Source of the DNA: Escherichia coli
GTDB taxonomy: Bacteria; Pseudomonadota; Gammaproteobacteria; Enterobacterales; Enterobacteriaceae
Direction: 5' to 3' (one strand)
Length of the DNA stretch: 64,000 nucleotides
Assembly: GCF_044647545.1 (NCBI RefSeq)
Contig: NZ_CP172818.1
Below are positions 51,901 through 64,000 of the stretch, piece after piece. Each line of letters begins with the position of its first letter. Positions within the stretch are counted from its first letter, which is position 1. The position numbers were made by a program.

Positions 51901-54900
51901 GTCGCGCCAGCTCTTTTACGCTGGTTCCCGTGGTGCGCGAAATACGATATAGCGTATCCCCCCGTTTCACGGTGTAAACGGAGCCGGAATACGTTCCTGT
52001 ATCGGATGATTTGCTACCCGAGCAGCCCGCCAAAAGCAGTCCAACCGATAACAACATCACGATACCCAGAGATTTTTTATTCAGGCGTCCCGCACTCAAA
52101 ATCTTTCCTCGCTTAAAAAACAAGACGCCATATCATAGCAGCCAGCCTCTTGATACCCAATCTCTTGCTTCTGGAAAAACGCGGTAATAGAGAAAGAGGT
52201 TAATTTCATTTGGCAAAGGGAAGTATCATCAGCAAAATATTCACTGTAGAGGTATCGAATTTCCTGACTCATTTACCCTATTTCCCATCCTGATGCGTAA
52301 TAATCCCAATTTATCACATTGATTTTATCGCCACTCATATTGATACGTATCACTGCCCCTATTCAGGGTCCTGTTTCGTATCATATCTGTGTTTTTTTAA
52401 CATCATCACACTTCCTTCCTCCCTTAACGCTTATCGTCGTTTCTGGCGTAAATCTTGCCTGCTTAGACTAAATCTTTGCCATAAGAACCAAATGTTCAAA
52501 TCGAGGGGATTTCTATGGAAGCGCGGGAAGCAACCGCTACAGGTGAATCATGCATGCGCGTAGATGCCATTGCTAAGGTCACCGGGCGGGCACGATATAC
52601 TGACGATTATGTTATGGCGGGCATGTGTTACGCGAAATATGTACGTAGCCCTATCGCACATGGTTATGCCGTAAGTATTAATGATGAACAAGCCAGAAGT
52701 TTACCGGGCGTACTGGCGATTTTTACCTGGGAAGATGTGCCTGATATCCCATTCGCTACAGCTGGGCATGCCTGGACACTTGACGAAAACAAGCGCGATA
52801 CCGCCGATCGCGCACTGCTAACTCGCCATGTTCGTCACCATGGTGACGCCGTTGCCATCGTCGTGGCCCGTGATGAACTCACGGCAGAAAAAGCGGCGCA
52901 ATTGGTCAGCATTGAGTGGCAAGAATTACCCGTTATCACCACCCCAGAAGCGGCGCTGGCTGATGACGCTGAACCAATCCATAACGGCGGCAATTTACTA
53001 AAACAAAGCACGATGTCGACGGGCAATGTCCAACAAACAATCGATGCCGCCGACTACCAGGTACAGGGGCACTATCAGACGCCGGTCATTCAACATTGTC
53101 ACATGGAAAGCGTGACATCGCTGGCATGGATGGAGGATGACTCGCGAATTACCATCGTTTCCAGCACCCAGATCCCACACATTGTTCGCCGTGTGGTTGG
53201 TCAGGCGCTGAATATTCCCTGGTCATGCGTACGAGTCATCAAACCGTTTGTCGGTGGCGGTTTTGGTAATAAACAGGATGTACTGGAAGAGCCAATGGCG
53301 GCATTCCTGACCAGCAAGCTTGGCGGCATTCCGGTGAAAGTTTCCCTTAGCCGTGAAGAGTGTTTCCTCGCAACCCGTACCCGCCACGCTTTTACTATTG
53401 ACGGGCAAATGGGCGTGAACCGCGACGGAACATTGAAAGGTTATAGTCTGGATGTTCTGTCTAACACCGGCGCTTACGCATCTCACGGGCACTCCATCGC
53501 TTCTGCGGGGGGGAATAAAGTCGCTTACCTTTATCCTCGTTGTGCCTACGCTTACAGTTCAAAGACCTGCTATACCAACCTCCCCTCGGCTGGTGCGATG
53601 CGTGGTTATGGCGCGCCACAAGTCGTATTTGCCGTTGAGTCTATGCTTGATGACGCCGCGACAGCGTTAGGTATTGATCCTGTTGAAATTCGTTTACGCA
53701 ACGCCGCCCGCGAAGGAGATGCTAATCCGCTCACGGGCAAACGTATTTACAGCGCAGGGTTGCCGGAGTGTCTTGAAAAAGGCCGGAAAATCTTTGAATG
53801 GGAAAAACGCCGTGCAGAGTGCCAGAACCAGAAAGGCAATTTACGCCGCGGCGTTGGCGTCGCCTGTTTTAGCTACACCTCGAACACCTGGCCTGTCGGC
53901 GTAGAAATAGCAGGCGCGCGCCTTCTGATGAATCAGGATGGAACCATCAACGTGCAAAGCGGCGCGACGGAAATCGGTCAGGGTGCCGACACCGTCTTCT
54001 CGCAAATGGTGGCAGAAACCGTGGGGGTTCCGGTCAGCGACGTTCGCGTTATTTCAACACAAGATACCGATGTTACGCCGTTCGATCCCGGCGCATTTGC
54101 CTCACGCCAGAGCTATGTTGCCGCGCCTGCGCTGCGCAGTGCGGCACTGTTATTAAAAGAGAAAATCATCGCTCACGCCGCAGTCATGCTACATCAGTCA
54201 GCGATGAATCTGACCCTGATAAAAGGCCATATCGTGCTGATTGAACGACCGGAAGAACCGTTAATGTCGTTAAAAGATTTGGCGATGGACGCTTTCTACC
54301 ACCCTGAACGCGGCGGGCAGCTCTCTGCTGAAAGCTCCATCAAAACCACCACTAACCCACCGGCGTTTGGCTGTACCTTTGTTGATCTGACGGTCGATAT
54401 TGCGCTGTGTAAAGTCACCATCAACCGCATCCTCAACGTTCATGATTCGGGGCATATTCTAAATCCGCTGCTGGCAGAAGGTCAGGTACACGGCGGAATG
54501 GGAATGGGCATTGGCTGGGCGCTATTTGAAGAGATGATCATCGATGCGAAAAGCGGCGTGGTCCGTAACCCCAATCTGCTGGATTACAAAATGCCGACCA
54601 TGCCGGATCTGCCACAACTGGAAAGCGCGTTCGTCGAAATCAATGAGCCGCAATCCGCATACGGACATAAGTCACTGGGTGAGCCACCAATAATTCCTGT
54701 TGCCGCTGCTATTCGTAACGCGGTGAAGATGGCTACCGGTGTTGCAATCAATACACTGCCGCTGACGCCAAAACGGTTATATGAAGAGTTCCATCTGGCA
54801 GGATTGATTTGAGGATAACATCATGTTTGATTTTACTTCTTACCATCGCGCAGCAACCCTTGCCGATGCCATCAACCTGCTGGCTGACAACCCGCAGGCC

Positions 54901-57900
54901 AAACTGCTCGCCGGTGGCACTGACGTACTGATTCAGCTCCACCATCACAATGACCGTTATCGCCATATTGTTGATATTCATAATCTGGCGGAGCTGCGGG
55001 GAATTACGCTGGCGGAAGATGGCTCACTACGTATCGGCTCTGCAACGACATTTACCCAGCTCATTGAAGATCCTGTAACTCAACGTCATCTCCCGGCGTT
55101 ATGTGCTGCGGCCTCATCCATTGCCGGACCGCAGATCCGTAACGTCGCTACCTACGGTGGAAATATTTGCAACGGTGCTACCAGCGCAGATTCTGCCACG
55201 CCAACGCTAATTTATGACGCGAAACTGGAGATTCACTCCCCGCGCGGTGTTCGTTTCGTCCCGATTAATGGCTTTCACACTGAGCCGGGCAAAGTGTCTC
55301 TTGAGCATGACGAAATCCTTGTCGCCTTTCATTTTCCGCCCCAGCCGAAAGAACACGCGGGCAGCGCGCATTTTAAATATGCCATGCGCGACGCAATGGA
55401 TATTTCAACGATTGGCTGTGCCGCACATTGCCGACTGGATAACGGCAATTTCAGCGAATTACGCCTGGCATTTGGTGTTGCCGCGCCAACGCCGATTCGC
55501 TGCCAACATGCCGAACAGACTGCACAAAATGCGCCATTAAACCTGCAAACGCTGGAAGCTATCAGCGAATCTGTCCTGCAAGATGTCGCCCCGCGTTCTT
55601 CATGGCGGGCCAGTAAAGAGTTTCGTCTGCATCTCATCCAGACGATGACCAAAAAAGTGATTAGCGAAGCCGTCGCCGCGGCGGGGGGAAAATTGCAATG
55701 AATCACAGCGAAACAATTACCATCGAATGCACCATTAACGGGATGCCTTTTCAGCTTCACGCCGCACCAGGCACGCCGCTCTCGGAATTACTCCGCGAAC
55801 AAGGACTGCTAAGTGTCAAACAAGGGTGCTGCGTGGGTGAATGTGGTGCCTGTACGGTGCTGGTCGACGGCACAGCAATAGACAGTTGCTTATACCTTGC
55901 CGCCTGGGCTGAAGGAAAAGAGATCCGCACGCTGGAAGGTGAAGCGAAAGGCGGAAAACTTTCTCATGTTCAGCAGGCTTATGCGAAATCCGGCGCAGTG
56001 CAGTGCGGGTTTTGTACGCCAGGCCTGATTATGGCTACCACGGCAATGCTGGCGAAACCACGCGAGAAGCCATTAACCATTACGGAAATTCGTCGCGGAC
56101 TGGCGGGAAATCTTTGTCGCTGCACGGGGTATCAGATGATTGTAAATACAGTTCTGGATTGCGAGAAAACGAAGTAAAAGGATATCCGGCCTGAATTCAG
56201 GCCGGATTCACTGAGGTTATGTGTTTAACAACTCATATTTCTTAATCTTGCGATAGAGCGTAGCAATGCCGATGCCCAGTTCATCAGCAACTTCCTTCTT
56301 GCTGTTATGACGTGAAAGCGCCTCGCGGATCATTTGCTTTTCCATCTCCTCCAGCGCCGTGCCGCCCGCATCATCGAGTGACAGGTGCGCCTCACTGACC
56401 TCTGTTACATCACTTTGCTCCGTTGTGCCATTATTCAGCAGATTTGGTGGCAATAGCGTGCTGTCGATAACTTCACCTGAAGGAACCACGTTAACCAGAT
56501 ATTCCATCAAATTGCTTAACTCGCGCAGGTTTCCGGGCCAACGATGCTTACGCAATATTTCGACGACATCCGGAGCAATGCCAGGATAAACCGATCCCAG
56601 ACGACGGGTATGCAGATGTAAAAAGTAATGCACCAGTAATTCAATATCTTCCTGACGTTCACGCAGCGGTGGAAGAGTTATCGGGATAACATTAAGTCGG
56701 TAGAAGAGATCTTCGCGGAATTTACCTTCGGCAATGAACTGGGCCAAATTCTGATTAGTTGCAGAAATGATGCGGATGTCGACTTGTATTGGGCTACTGG
56801 CACCAATCGGCAGAATTTCACGCGCCTCAATAGCGCGCAGTAATTTAGCCTGCAACATTAATGGCATATCACCAATTTCATCGAGAAACAGCGTGCCCGT
56901 ATTCGCCGCCTGAATCAACCCTGTTTTACCGTTGGCAGAAGCGCCAGTAAATGCGCCTTTAACATAACCGAACAGTTCGCTCTCCAGAAGCTGTTCCGGA
57001 ATCGCGGCACAGTTGATAGCAATAAAGGGTTTATTCCGTCTTCCGCTCAACTTATGGATTGCACGGGCGACGACTTCTTTACCTGTGCCGCTTTCACCAA
57101 CCACCATAACGCTGGATGGGCTGGGTGCAATACGGCTAATGAGTCGTTTTAATTGCCGCATAACACGGCACTCGCCAACCAATTGTTCAATATGCGGTTC
57201 ATCAGGTGCATTTGCTACAGAAAAACTGGTATGCGATTGGTGAAACGCCATTAAAAATAGTTGTCGGCCCTGGATGTTATGCAACTGACCAATGATTAAT
57301 TCACTTTTATCATCCCACGAAACAATATGTTGCATATGACCATGGGTAAAATTACTCTCAAATGTTAATGGTCTGAAACGAACAGGTTTTCCAATAATAT
57401 TATTTTGTACAACACCGAGTGTTTTTAAAGCTGTCTGATTAACAAATTGAACACGATTATCAGCATCAACCACTAACACGCCCTGATCCATATTATCGAT
57501 CATGGTCGCGAATATTTTACTGATGTTATCTCCTGGTCCCTGATCCTCCAGAAGTTTAGAAACAAAAATGGTGGATATATGGCGAACGTAATCAGAAAAT
57601 TCGCGTAAATTATCACTAATATGCTCTTGTTGCTCGTGGGTAACGGCAATCAAACTTATCACTCCAACACAACGATCCTGTAAAATGACAGGCGTACCCA
57701 GAAATGCTTTTTCGCGGCAATTTTCTTTACTATCGCAACCTTCACAAAGGGGATCGAAGCGAGACTGTGTCACAACTTTTTCAGTTTTCGTTTCCAGGAC
57801 GTGGCGGAGCAGGCGTGAGTTGCCGCTCAACTGGCGACCAAGAAACTTCCCATACGCGCCCGTTCCGGCGACGCGACACAAGTTTTCATCAACGATCTCA

Positions 57901-63900: not shown

Positions 63901-64000
63901 GTTGCATTAAGCCAGGGTTATATTGGTTACGATCTACAAAACGCTTTAAGAGAAGAACTGCTTTCTCGGGGCATTAATAAACCTGTAGCAACGCTGGTTA

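What the first reader, a model, noticed from the sequence alone, without database searches (positions are those of the whole stretch)
52554..64000. xdhABC, divergent sigma54 activator ygeV, and ygeW-ygeX-ygeY-hyuA-yqeA cluster with a candidate sigma54 promoter
A carbamoyltransferase, a PLP ammonia-lyase, an M20 amidohydrolase, a hydantoinase-like amidohydrolase, and a carbamate kinase sit beside xanthine dehydrogenase and an enhancer-binding protein. This is a coherent gene set for an ATP-yielding anaerobic purine or ureide breakdown route ending in carbamate, in which several steps are still not firmly assigned. The near-consensus -24/-12 element (TGGCAC-N5-TTGT at 58365-58380) suggests ygeV activates ygeW directly.
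Basis: partly seen in the sequence, partly recalled or inferred. Interest (0 to 1): 0.5.

Follow-up and report, generated by a model that had tools for sequence, protein, structure and literature searches.

The report
E. coli urate-breakdown operon promoter
This is the well-studied E. coli xdhABC / ygeV / ygeW-ygeX-ygeY-hyuA-yqeA purine and uric-acid breakdown locus, whose sigma-54 promoter in front of ygeW was already mapped in 2015 and whose enzyme steps were assigned in 2025, so the finding is correct but ordinary.

Summary

It is already known. The same 17-mer, CTGGCACACTTATTGTT, is sigma-54 ChIP-seq site OS30 of Bonocora et al. 2015, and an RpoN gSELEX peak of Shimada et al. 2021 lies in the same spacer. 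Li et al. 2025 assigned the enzymes: HyuA opens ureidomethyl-hydantoin, YgeW phosphorolyses the 2-ureido group, YqeA makes ATP, YgeY then YgeX give pyruvate and ammonia. The clause "steps not firmly assigned" is out of date.

Direct activation by YgeV has not been shown in any paper I could read. My analysis supports it:
- The promoter is 19/20 identical in Enterobacter sp. Bisph1, in a spacer that is 74% identical overall.
- A weight matrix built only from published clostridial DioR enhancer sites (TTATCA-N3-TGATAA) gives just three hits of at least 14 bits in 284 kb of E. coli DNA.
- Those three hits lie 174-209 bp upstream of the -24 elements of ygeW, ygfK and ygfT.

YgeV has no receiver domain. 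It has a GAF domain with an invariant CxxCx5C motif, then a PAS domain. Novelty: already known. Interest: low.

The parts
52309..52349 (+). Two candidate YgeV enhancer (UAS) dyads upstream of xdhA: ATTTATCACATTGATTTTA (52309-52327) and CCACTCATATTGATACGTA (52331-52349). Their centres are 22 bp apart.
   Evidence: The first scores 8.4 bits with the DioR matrix (151 of 5000 composition-matched shuffles reach this). The second shares the exact 12-mer CTCATATTGATA with the ygeW and ygfT sites. This is the weakest of the four regions. The second dyad overlaps an FNR-like sequence, TTGATACGTATCAC.
52443..52459 (+). Sigma-54 promoter of xdhABC, CTGGCGTAAATCTTGCC.
   Evidence: Read directly from the sequence. 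It is identical to ChIP-seq site OS29 of Bonocora 2015, which is flagged as confirmed in EcoCyc.
52515..56177 (+). xdhA (52515 or 52554 to 54812), xdhB (54823-55701) and xdhC (55698-56177): xanthine dehydrogenase, interconverting xanthine and urate.
   Evidence: NCBIfam equivalogs NF007426, NF007427 and NF007387, all above cut-off; RefSeq annotation; role from Li et al. 2025.
56217..57995 (-). ygeV: sigma-54 enhancer-binding protein. Domains: GAF (about residues 1-150, with C84-x2-C87-x5-C93), PAS (162-206), AAA+ with GAFTGA (272-439), HTH_8 (548-587).
58050..58068 (.). Candidate distal YgeV dyad, ATAGATCATGATGATATTA (ATCA-N3-TGAT).
   Evidence: One mismatch to TATCA-N3-TGATA. It aligns with an 11.7-bit DioR-matrix site in Enterobacter. 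In E. coli it scores below 5 bits, so it is the weaker candidate.
58137..58170 (.). Main candidate YgeV enhancer block, GAGATATCACATTTCTATATCAATATGAGAATTA. The dyad core lies at 58148-58166, 209 bp upstream of the -24 GG.
   Evidence: It is the top DioR-matrix hit in the whole 64-kb window (14.4 bits; next best 9.8). 12 of 5000 shuffles of the spacer reach this score. It is conserved in Enterobacter at the same distance (-210), where it scores 19.8 bits.
58306..58321 (.). CRP-like site TGTGATCAACCCCACA (9 of 10 consensus positions), centred about 77 bp upstream of the predicted start site.
   Evidence: Read from the sequence. Conserved as AGTGATCCTTATCACA in Enterobacter. Li et al. 2025 mention a native Crp site in this spacer and glucose repression of the pathway.
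58364..58380 (+). Sigma-54 promoter of ygeW, CTGGCACACTTATTGTT (-24 GG at 58366-58367, -12 GT at 58378-58379). Predicted start site near 58390.
   Evidence: Identical to ChIP-seq site OS30. An RpoN gSELEX peak lies in this spacer. 19/20 identical in Enterobacter. Invariant in seven E. coli strains.
58474..59661 (+). ygeW: knotted carbamoyltransferase. It phosphorolyses the 2-ureido group of 2,3-diureidopropionate to albizziin plus carbamoyl phosphate.
   Evidence: NF005538, 825 bits against a cut-off of 453; activity from Li et al. 2025.
59719..60915 (+). ygeX/dpaL: diaminopropionate ammonia-lyase, giving pyruvate and ammonia.
   Evidence: TIGR03528 and NF006058 above cut-off; Li et al. 2025.
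60973..62184 (+). ygeY: M20 hydrolase that cleaves the 3-ureido group of albizziin to give diaminopropionate.
   Evidence: TIGR03526, 722 bits against a cut-off of 321.5; coupled YgeY plus YgeX assay in Li et al. 2025.
62237..63622 (+). hyuA: D-hydantoinase that opens ureidomethyl-hydantoin (and 5-ureido-dihydrouracil) to 2,3-diureidopropionate.
   Evidence: TIGR02033, 675 bits against a cut-off of 393; Li et al. 2025 (that assay used the C. difficile enzyme).
63670..64000 (+). yqeA/arcC: carbamate kinase, first 110 codons only (cut by the window end). It makes ATP from carbamoyl phosphate.
   Evidence: TIGR00746 and NF009007 match residues 1-110; full gene in RefSeq annotation; ATP-generation role stated in Li et al. 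2025.

Best explanation
This is the left half of the E. coli purine and urate catabolic island.

Enzymes. xdhABC interconverts xanthine and urate. The ygeW-ygeX-ygeY-hyuA-yqeA operon carries out the lower half of the reductive uric-acid pathway: ureidomethyl-hydantoin is opened by HyuA to 2,3-diureidopropionate; YgeW plus phosphate converts this to albizziin and carbamoyl phosphate; YqeA uses the carbamoyl phosphate to make ATP; YgeY converts albizziin to 2,3-diaminopropionate; YgeX converts that to pyruvate and ammonia.

Promoter. ygeW is transcribed from a sigma-54 promoter at 58364-58380, where RNA polymerase-sigma-54 sits as a closed complex.

Activator. The divergently encoded enhancer-binding protein YgeV is the E. 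coli counterpart of clostridial DioR. It binds TTATCA-N3-TGATAA-type dyads about 210 bp (and possibly about 307 bp) upstream of the -24 element. It reaches the polymerase by DNA looping and opens the complex by ATP hydrolysis through its GAFTGA loop. The same dyad lies 174-177 bp upstream of the sigma-54 promoters of ygfK and ygfT, and more weakly 127 bp upstream of that of xdhA, so one regulator coordinates the whole island.

Other inputs. A CRP-like site between enhancer and promoter probably explains glucose repression. YgeV is not a response regulator; its activity is presumably gated by its N-terminal GAF (CxxCx5C) and PAS domains.

Shown in the literature: gene identities, enzyme steps, sigma-54 occupancy. 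Inferred here: the YgeV binding sites, looping, the role of CRP and the sensing mechanism.
For: - Gene identities: NCBIfam equivalogs above cut-off and RefSeq annotation.
- Enzyme steps: Li et al. 2025.
- Sigma-54 occupancy: ChIP-seq site OS30 has the identical 17-mer, and an RpoN gSELEX peak lies in the ygeV/ygeW spacer. A -12 GT works at the confirmed pspA promoter, TTGGCACGCAAATTGTA.
- Promoter conservation: 19/20 identical in Enterobacter sp. Bisph1, where the spacer as a whole is 74% identical. No variant in seven E. coli strains.
- YgeV is a complete enhancer-binding protein: Sigma54_activat E = 2e-70, HTH_8, GAFTGA.
- Co-regulation: the YgeV iModulon contains xdhABC, ygeWXY, hyuA, ygfK, ssnA, ygfM, xdhD, ygfT and uacT, and ygfT expression falls in a ygeV mutant.
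- Enhancer sites: published DioR sites in Clostridia are TTATCA-N3-TGATAA, upstream of sigma-54 promoters of dpaL, ygeW-ygfK-ssnA-ygeY and xdhABC.
- Independent matrix test: a matrix built from 17 of those sites gives its top hit in the window at 58148-58166. Its top two hits in the adjacent 20 kb lie upstream of ygfT and ygfK, and its top two in the Enterobacter locus lie in the ygeV-ygeW spacer.
- Matrix significance: composition-matched shuffles reach the observed score 12, 9, 2 and 0 times in 5000. Only these three sites reach 14 bits in 284 kb of E. coli DNA.
- One site is nearly identical across phyla: the E. coli ygfK site CTTTATCATAATGATAAGG is 18/19 identical to the C. botulinum ygeW site.
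- Same DNA-reading helix: the HTH segment LGIGIATLYRK is invariant between YgeV and its clostridial homologues.
- Same gene neighbourhood: a Clostridium homologue (39% identity) sits between pbuX genes and xdhABC, with sigma-54 promoters and the same dyads.
Against: - No experiment I could read shows YgeV binding DNA or rpoN/ygeV dependence of ygeW itself.
- The ChIP signal at OS30 is weak (FAT 3, against 11 for xdhA).
- The -12 element is GT, not the usual GC.
- The dyads are AT-rich in AT-rich spacers. The xdhA site is only marginal (8.4 bits, p about 0.03) and overlaps an FNR-like sequence, and the ygfK site partly resembles a Fur box.
- The enhancer lies about 210 bp from the promoter, further than many such sites, and I found no clear IHF site.
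- Within-E. coli polymorphism shows only weak depletion in the proposed elements (3 variable positions against 6.1 expected in 94 nt).
- Li et al. attribute native control to a Crp site, and the iModulon authors link activity to ethanol in baeR/cpxR mutants rather than to purines.
- Iwadate and Kato 2019 could not be read.
Confidence: 0.75

Rival explanations
1. Sigma-54 holoenzyme occupies the site but it is a poised or non-productive binding site. ygeW is mainly transcribed by sigma-70 polymerase activated by CRP-cAMP, and YgeV affects it only indirectly.
For: - The ChIP signal is weak (FAT 3) and Bonocora et al. found many non-productive sigma-54 sites.
- A conserved CRP-like site lies at 58306-58321.
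- Li et al. describe glucose repression and a native Crp site.
- The -12 element is GT.
Against: - No credible sigma-70 promoter was found on the + strand between the CRP-like site and ygeW. The only consensus match overlaps the start codon.
- The -24/-12 element is the best conserved block of the spacer across genera.
- Homologous clusters in Clostridia are all preceded by sigma-54 promoters.
- The operon co-varies with three other sigma-54-preceded operons.
Confidence: 0.12
2. The AT-rich dyads are bound by a different factor (for example Fur, FNR or a nucleoid protein), or are compositional coincidence. YgeV binds elsewhere, or another enhancer-binding protein drives the promoter.
For: - The xdhA dyad overlaps TTGATACGTATCAC, which matches 9 of 10 positions of the FNR consensus TTGAT-N4-ATCAA (the consensus is from my own knowledge).
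- The ygfK site contains ATAATGATAA, part of the Fur box (own knowledge).
- The window has more one-mismatch TATCA-N3-TGATA matches than shuffles predict, including outside this locus (11 against 1.8).
Against: - The matrix came from an independent published set in another phylum. Its only hits of at least 14 bits in 284 kb are the three spacers that also carry sigma-54 ChIP sites, at similar distances of 174-209 bp.
- Site and distance are conserved in Enterobacter (-210 against -209).
- The HTH is conserved with the clostridial regulators.
Confidence: 0.08
3. The element is a chance match with no function.
For: The pattern alone is expected 0.48 times per window, and 36 of 100 shuffles contain at least one match.
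Against: Published ChIP-seq and gSELEX occupancy, cross-genus conservation, and correct position and orientation.
Confidence: 0.02

Closest known systems
E. coli K-12 ygeW sigma-54 binding site OS30 (Bonocora et al. 2015, PLoS Genet) and the RpoN gSELEX peak in the ygeV/ygeW spacer (Shimada et al. 2021)
   Same: It is the identical 17-mer CTGGCACACTTATTGTT, in the same position and orientation relative to ygeW. It is the same object in another E. coli strain.
   Different: Nothing material differs. This strain's spacer differs from K-12 at 1.5% of positions, none of them in the element.
Reductive uric acid degradation gene cluster (Li et al. 2025, Life Metab; Liu et al. 2022/2023; Kasahara et al.)
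   Same: The genes are the same (ygeW, ygeX, ygeY, hyuA, yqeA next to xdhABC), with ygfK-ssnA-ygfM-xdhD downstream in the same genome.
   Different: The window contains only the lower-pathway operon and xdhABC. The upper-pathway genes lie beyond its end.
Clostridial DioR sigma-54 regulon (Nie et al. 2019, BMC Genomics)
   Same: - An enhancer-binding protein of the same architecture (37-39% identity over the full length to clostridial and Sedimentibacter relatives, with invariant HTH residues).
- The same target genes (dpaL, ygeW, ygfK, ssnA, ygeY, xdhABC, pbuX).
- Sigma-54 promoters.
- The same TTATCA-N3-TGATAA enhancer dyad, 120-240 bp upstream of the promoter.
   Different: - That study did not cover E. 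coli, and it listed the regulon's function as unknown.
- Gene order differs, with ygeV divergent from ygeW.
- E. coli adds a CRP-like site.
- Some E. coli sites have the TGAGA half-site typical of C. difficile rather than TGATA.
Divergent GAF-domain enhancer-binding protein / sigma-54 operon pairs in E. coli, such as NorR-norVW and FhlA-hyc/hyp
   Same: The activator gene is divergent from its sigma-54-dependent target. An N-terminal GAF sensor gates the AAA+ domain, enhancer dyads lie upstream of the promoter, and the physiology is anaerobic.
   Different: NorR senses NO through a non-haem iron centre and FhlA binds formate. The YgeV signal is unknown, and its GAF domain carries a CxxCx5C motif that neither description mentions.

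Membership tests
Sigma-54 (-24/-12) promoter | GG and GC doublets exactly one helical turn apart within a TGGCAC-N5-TTGC-like sequence | tested here: met
   TGGCAC-N5-TTGT at 58365-58379. The -24 half is perfect and the -12 doublet is GT instead of GC. The same GT occurs in the confirmed pspA promoter.
Sigma-54 (-24/-12) promoter | Occupied by sigma-54 holoenzyme | not testable with these tools
   Literature only: ChIP-seq OS30 with FAT 3 and gSELEX peak at 3004270.
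Sigma-54 (-24/-12) promoter | rpoN-dependent and activator-dependent transcription, with a start site about 12 nt downstream of the -12 element | not testable with these tools
   None of the papers I could read reports a ygeW start site or an rpoN dependence test for ygeW.
Sigma-54 (-24/-12) promoter | Conserved in orthologous loci | tested here: met
   19/20 identical in Enterobacter sp. Bisph1. Invariant in seven divergent E. coli strains.
Bacterial enhancer-binding protein (YgeV) | AAA+ sigma-54 interaction domain with Walker A and GAFTGA loop, plus a C-terminal Fis-type HTH | tested here: met
   PF00158 E = 2.1e-70 and PF02954 E = 5.7e-13. GESGTGKE and GAFTGA are visible in alignment A2.
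Two-component response regulator (as YgeV/IsrR is called in PMC9426417) | N-terminal receiver (CheY-like) domain with a phospho-acceptor Asp | tested here: not met
DioR-type regulator and regulon (Nie et al. 2019) | Enhancer-binding protein homologous over its full length and encoded next to purine/urate catabolic genes | tested here: met
   39% identity over residues 8-590 to a Clostridium MAG protein flanked by pbuX, pbuX and xdhABC-deaminase-mocA.
DioR-type regulator and regulon (Nie et al. 2019) | TTATCA-N3-TGATAA enhancer dyads upstream of the sigma-54 promoters of the target operons | tested here: met
   Matrix built from 17 published sites. Top hits lie upstream of ygeW (14.4 bits), ygfK (14.3) and ygfT (16.0). 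These are the only hits of at least 14 bits in 284 kb. The xdhA site is marginal at 8.4 bits.
DioR-type regulator and regulon (Nie et al. 2019) | Regulator shown to bind those sites and activate transcription | not testable with these tools
   In the parts of that paper I read, the clostridial regulon is a comparative-genomics reconstruction. I found no binding data for E. coli YgeV.
Reductive uric acid degradation cluster (Li et al. 2025) | Presence of YgeW, YgeX, YgeY, HyuA and YqeA, with XdhD-YgfM, YgfK and SsnA nearby | tested here: met
   NCBIfam equivalogs. The downstream genes are annotated in the same genome.
Reductive uric acid degradation cluster (Li et al. 2025) | Demonstrated enzyme activities on ureidomethyl-hydantoin, diureidopropionate, albizziin and diaminopropionate | not testable with these tools
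   Taken from the paper. The proteins here match RefSeq WP_ entries of E. coli.

The most novel reading that the evidence does not exclude
YgeV is the E. coli orthologue of the clostridial DioR regulator and is the single master activator of the urate island. It would bind TTATCA-N3-TGATAA dyads 127-210 bp upstream of four sigma-54 promoters (xdhA, ygeW, ygfK, ygfT). Its activity would be gated not by phosphorylation but by a GAF domain with an invariant CxxCx5C motif, which might hold a metal or Fe-S centre or a redox-active thiol set. This could couple urate catabolism to anaerobiosis or to a purine ligand. The published 'orphan response regulator / indole sensor' description would then need revising.
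Probability: 0.45. Interest if true: 0.45.

Novelty: already known. Interest (0 to 1): 0.2.

Why it matters
The locus matters for gut purine and urate homeostasis and for engineered uricolytic probiotics. Li et al. had to replace this very ygeV-ygeW spacer with constitutive promoters, and they state that regulation of the pathway is poorly understood.

The follow-up does give concrete, cheap tests of the missing regulatory link:
- defined YgeV target dyads (58148-58166, plus the equivalents upstream of ygfK, ygfT and xdhA);
- a defined promoter;
- a candidate sensing motif in the GAF domain (C84, C87, C93).

Knowing the native inducer and enhancer could allow inducible rather than constitutive probiotic designs.

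Tried and rejected
- A protein search with YgeV returned only near-identical E. coli variants, so it gave no orthologues for footprinting.
It gave only one close orthologue (Enterobacter sp. Bisph1, 69%) plus distant homologues.
- Iwadate and Kato 2019, the paper reporting ygeV-dependent ygfT expression, is not held. I cite it only through secondary mentions.
- Rfam found no RNA family in 51000-64000 except a tRNA outside the finding, so there is no known riboswitch in the roughly 85-nt ygeW leader.
- The sigma-70 and terminator scan of the spacer gave nothing above shuffles.
- Generic repeat finding in the spacer missed the relevant dyads.
- The third exact TCATATTGATA in the window (34903) lies inside an ORF on the opposite strand and has no nearby sigma-54 site; I treated it as chance.
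- The perfect TATCATCTTGATA inside ygeX (59995-60007) scores poorly with the full matrix and was left unexplained.
- Polymorphism among seven E. coli spacers is too sparse to prove constraint on the enhancer dyads.
- A sequence search of the PDB found no solved relative of the GAF part of YgeV.
- I considered FNR and Fur as binders of the dyads and ranked them low.

Full report
**1. What is in the sequence**

The stretch 56000-60000 is 100% identical to several E. coli chromosomes, for example FDAARGOS_497. A match to it is present in 5283 of 5426 complete E. coli genomes. ORF listing and the RefSeq annotation of the identical genome give these genes:

| Gene | Coordinates | Strand |
|---|---|---|
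| xdhB | 54823-55701 | + |
| xdhC | 55698-56177 | + |
| ygeV | 56217-57995 | - |
| ygeW | 58474-59661 | + |
| ygeX/dpaL | 59719-60915 | + |
| ygeY | 60973-62184 | + |
| hyuA | 62237-63622 | + |
| yqeA/arcC | 63670 onward, first 110 codons only | + |

NCBIfam places each enzyme in its named equivalog family, well above the curated cut-off. Only the carbamate kinase, cut by the window end, falls below its cut-off.

The proposed element reads TGGCAC-ACTTA-TTGT at 58365-58379 on the + strand. That is about 95 nt upstream of the ygeW ATG.

**2. Is the element more than chance?**

As a bare pattern it is not. TGGCAC-N5-TTGY is expected 0.48 times in 64 kb, and 36 of 100 shuffles contain one. Context settles the question.

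- In Enterobacter sp. Bisph1, the only close ygeV orthologue the genome scan returned (69% identity), ygeV is again divergent from ygeW-ygeX-ygeY-hyuA-arcC.
- The only TGGCAC-N5-TTGC-like match in that 15.7-kb locus is TGGCACAGTTATTGT, about 95 nt upstream of ygeW.
- In the pairwise alignment the block CTGGCACAsTTATTGTTAGT is 19/20 identical, while the spacer overall is 74% identical and the adjacent leader is barely alignable.
- Among seven E. coli spacers chosen to span 96-100% identity, 31 of 478 positions vary. None lies in 58363-58383.

**3. It is already in the literature**

- Bonocora et al. 2015 (PMC4591121), Table 1, lists intergenic sigma-54 ChIP-seq peak OS30. Its motif is CTGGCACACTTATTGTT on the + strand, the downstream gene is ygeW, the distance is 80 and FAT is 3. 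It carries no EcoCyc flag, so it was new in 2015. It is the identical 17-mer.
- The same table lists OS29 (xdhA, CTGGCGTAAATCTTGCC; present here at 52443-52459), OS31 (ygfK) and OS32 (ygfT).
- It also lists the confirmed pspA promoter, TTGGCACGCAAATTGTA, which shows that a -12 GT is functional.
- Shimada et al. 2021 found an RpoN holoenzyme gSELEX peak in the ygeV/ygeW spacer.

On function:

- Li et al. 2025 (PMC12507026) reconstituted the pathway. XdhD-YgfM reduces urate to yanthine. YgfK plus SsnA give ureidomethyl-hydantoin. HyuA opens it to 2,3-diureidopropionate. [quoted passage not shown] YgeY plus YgeX give pyruvate.

The statement that steps remain unassigned is out of date.

**4. What remains open, and what I could add**

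No paper I could read shows YgeV binding DNA, or rpoN or ygeV dependence of ygeW itself. The link rests on three things:

- the 'YgeV iModulon' (xdhABC, ygeWXY, hyuA, ygfK, ssnA, ygfM, xdhD, ygfT, uacT);
- a cited report that ygfT expression drops in a ygeV mutant; the primary paper is not held;
- gene adjacency.

I therefore looked for the enhancer.

*Shared words in the four E. coli spacers.* I compared the four spacers that carry sigma-54 ChIP sites. The exact word CTCATATTGATA occurs upstream of xdhA, ygeW (reverse strand) and ygfT. A one-mismatch copy lies upstream of ygfK. All fit a dyad TATCA-N3-TGATA.

*The same motif is published for Clostridia.* Nie et al. 2019 (PMC6615313) reconstructed a regulon for an enhancer-binding protein they called DioR. 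Its targets are dpaL-pyrC-argE, ygeW-ygfK-ssnA-ygeY, pbuX and xdhABC, and they listed its function as 'unknown'. The listed enhancer sites are ATTTATCAAAGTGATAAGT, ATTTATCATAATGATAAGG, TATTATCATTTTGATAATA and similar. In C. difficile the half-sites are TCTCA/TGAGA.

*An independent test.* I built a weight matrix from 17 of those published sites. No E. coli sequence went into it.

| DNA scanned | Best hits | Next best |
|---|---|---|
| 64-kb window | 58148-58166 (ygeV-ygeW spacer), 14.4 bits | 9.8 |
| Adjacent 20 kb (L002) | ygfT-uacT spacer 16.0; mocA-ygfK spacer 14.3 | 8.3 |
| Enterobacter locus (L003) | both in the ygeV-ygeW spacer, 19.8 and 11.7 | 5.5 |

Further checks:

- Shuffling each spacer 5000 times reaches the observed score 12 (ygeW), 9 (ygfK), 2 (ygfT), 151 (xdhA) and 0 (Enterobacter) times.
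- I added four arbitrary 50-kb control segments of the same genome. Only those three sites reach 14 bits in 284 kb, and the control maximum is 13.2.
- The dyad centres lie 209 (ygeW), 210 (Enterobacter ygeW), 177 (ygfK), 174 (ygfT) and 127 (xdhA) bp upstream of the -24 GG. This is comparable with the 120-240 bp spacing in the clostridial table.
- The E. coli ygfK site is 18/19 identical to the C. botulinum ygeW site.

*The regulators are related.*

- A Clostridium MAG protein is 39% identical to YgeV over its whole length. It sits between two pbuX genes and xdhABC-deaminase-mocA.
- That locus has sigma-54 promoters: TGGCACACTTATTGC upstream of pbuX, and TGGCATAAGAATTGC upstream of the regulator.
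- It also has perfect dyads about 120-190 bp upstream of a promoter.
- The HTH segment LGIGIATLYRK is invariant across YgeV, the Enterobacter orthologue and three distant homologues.

I conclude, by inference rather than demonstration, that YgeV is the E. coli DioR orthologue. It would bind the 58137-58170 block, and possibly the weaker 58050-68 dyad, to activate the ygeW promoter. It would do the same at ygfK, ygfT and, less certainly, xdhA.

**5. Other features of the spacer**

TGTGATCAACCCCACA (58306-58321) matches 9 of 10 CRP consensus positions. It is conserved as AGTGATCCTTATCACA in Enterobacter. It lies between enhancer and promoter, about 77 bp upstream of the predicted start. Li et al. 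mention a native Crp site in this spacer and glucose repression. Whether CRP helps looping or acts otherwise is not known.

No Rfam family, credible sigma-70 promoter or terminator was found.

**6. The regulator itself**

Pfam finds PAS (162-206), the sigma-54 AAA+ domain (272-439, E = 2e-70), an AAA lid and HTH_8 (548-587). It finds no receiver domain. The description of YgeV/IsrR as an 'orphan response regulator' is therefore not supported by domain content.

- No solved relative is detectable by sequence.
- The module is widespread, with 935 clusters at 50% identity at E <= 1e-3.
- In 61 full-length homologues averaging 39% column identity, C84, C87 and C93 (CxxCx5C) are invariant.
- That suggests a metal, Fe-S or thiol-based sensing site. 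This is speculation. An Fe-S-sensing enhancer-binding protein, OrpR, exists as a precedent (title and abstract only).

**7. Verdict**

The locus is a textbook-level E. coli region, the sigma-54 site is OS30, and the pathway is solved.

The residual open question is the direct YgeV-to-promoter link and the YgeV signal. It is now sharply testable using the dyad coordinates and the Cys motif given here.

Novelty: already known. Interest: low (0.2).

Noticed in passing
window 57540-57995 (- strand; YgeV residues 1-152): The N-terminal sensor of YgeV is a GAF domain carrying a C84-x2-C87-x5-C93 motif that is invariant in 61 homologues (about 39% mean identity). It may be a metal, Fe-S or redox site. 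It is not mentioned in any paper I found.
   Followed up: partly
window 56217-57995 (- strand): YgeV has no receiver domain (Pfam finds GAF-like, PAS, AAA+ and HTH_8). The published label 'orphan response regulator' for YgeV/IsrR does not fit its domain content.
   Followed up: yes
window 52339-52352: TTGATACGTATCAC upstream of xdhA matches 9 of 10 positions of the FNR consensus TTGAT-N4-ATCAA and overlaps a candidate YgeV dyad. It lies about 124 bp upstream of the predicted xdhA start, which is not a usual FNR activation position.
   Followed up: no
window 59995-60007 (inside ygeX): There is a perfect TATCA-N3-TGATA dyad (TATCATCTTGATA) inside the ygeX coding sequence. It scores poorly with the full 19-nt DioR matrix. 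It could be chance or an internal site.
   Followed up: no
window 52515 vs 52554: There are two alternative xdhA start codons. PGAP annotates the upstream ATG (765 aa), and the K-12 annotation uses ATG 52554 (752 aa). The sigma-54 promoter at 52443-52459 leaves only about 45 nt of leader before the upstream start.
   Followed up: no
L002 16452-17890 (same genome as the window's best match, NZ_CP033850.1): The urate/proton symporter gene uacT is annotated as a frameshifted pseudogene in strain FDAARGOS_497. Urate uptake in this strain may therefore be impaired even though the catabolic island is intact.
   Followed up: no
L004 3555-3569 (Clostridium sp. MAG): The sigma-54 promoter upstream of pbuX reads TGGCACACTTATTGC. 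Its first 14 bases are identical to those of the E. coli ygeW promoter, including the spacer, even though the two regulators are only 39% identical.
   Followed up: no
window about 47000-52123: Immediately upstream of xdhA lie remnants of a type III secretion cluster (sctC and an HTH regulator), a GhoT/OrtT toxin gene, a GH15 glycosidase gene, tRNA-Gly (51198-51268, - strand) and actS. The purine island therefore abuts a tRNA-linked horizontally acquired region.
   Followed up: no
window 40299-45939: Several moderate DioR-matrix hits (9-10 bits) and one-mismatch dyads cluster in an AT-rich stretch well outside the purine locus. This is probably a compositional effect, and it shows that the dyad alone is not specific below about 11-13 bits.
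   Followed up: partly
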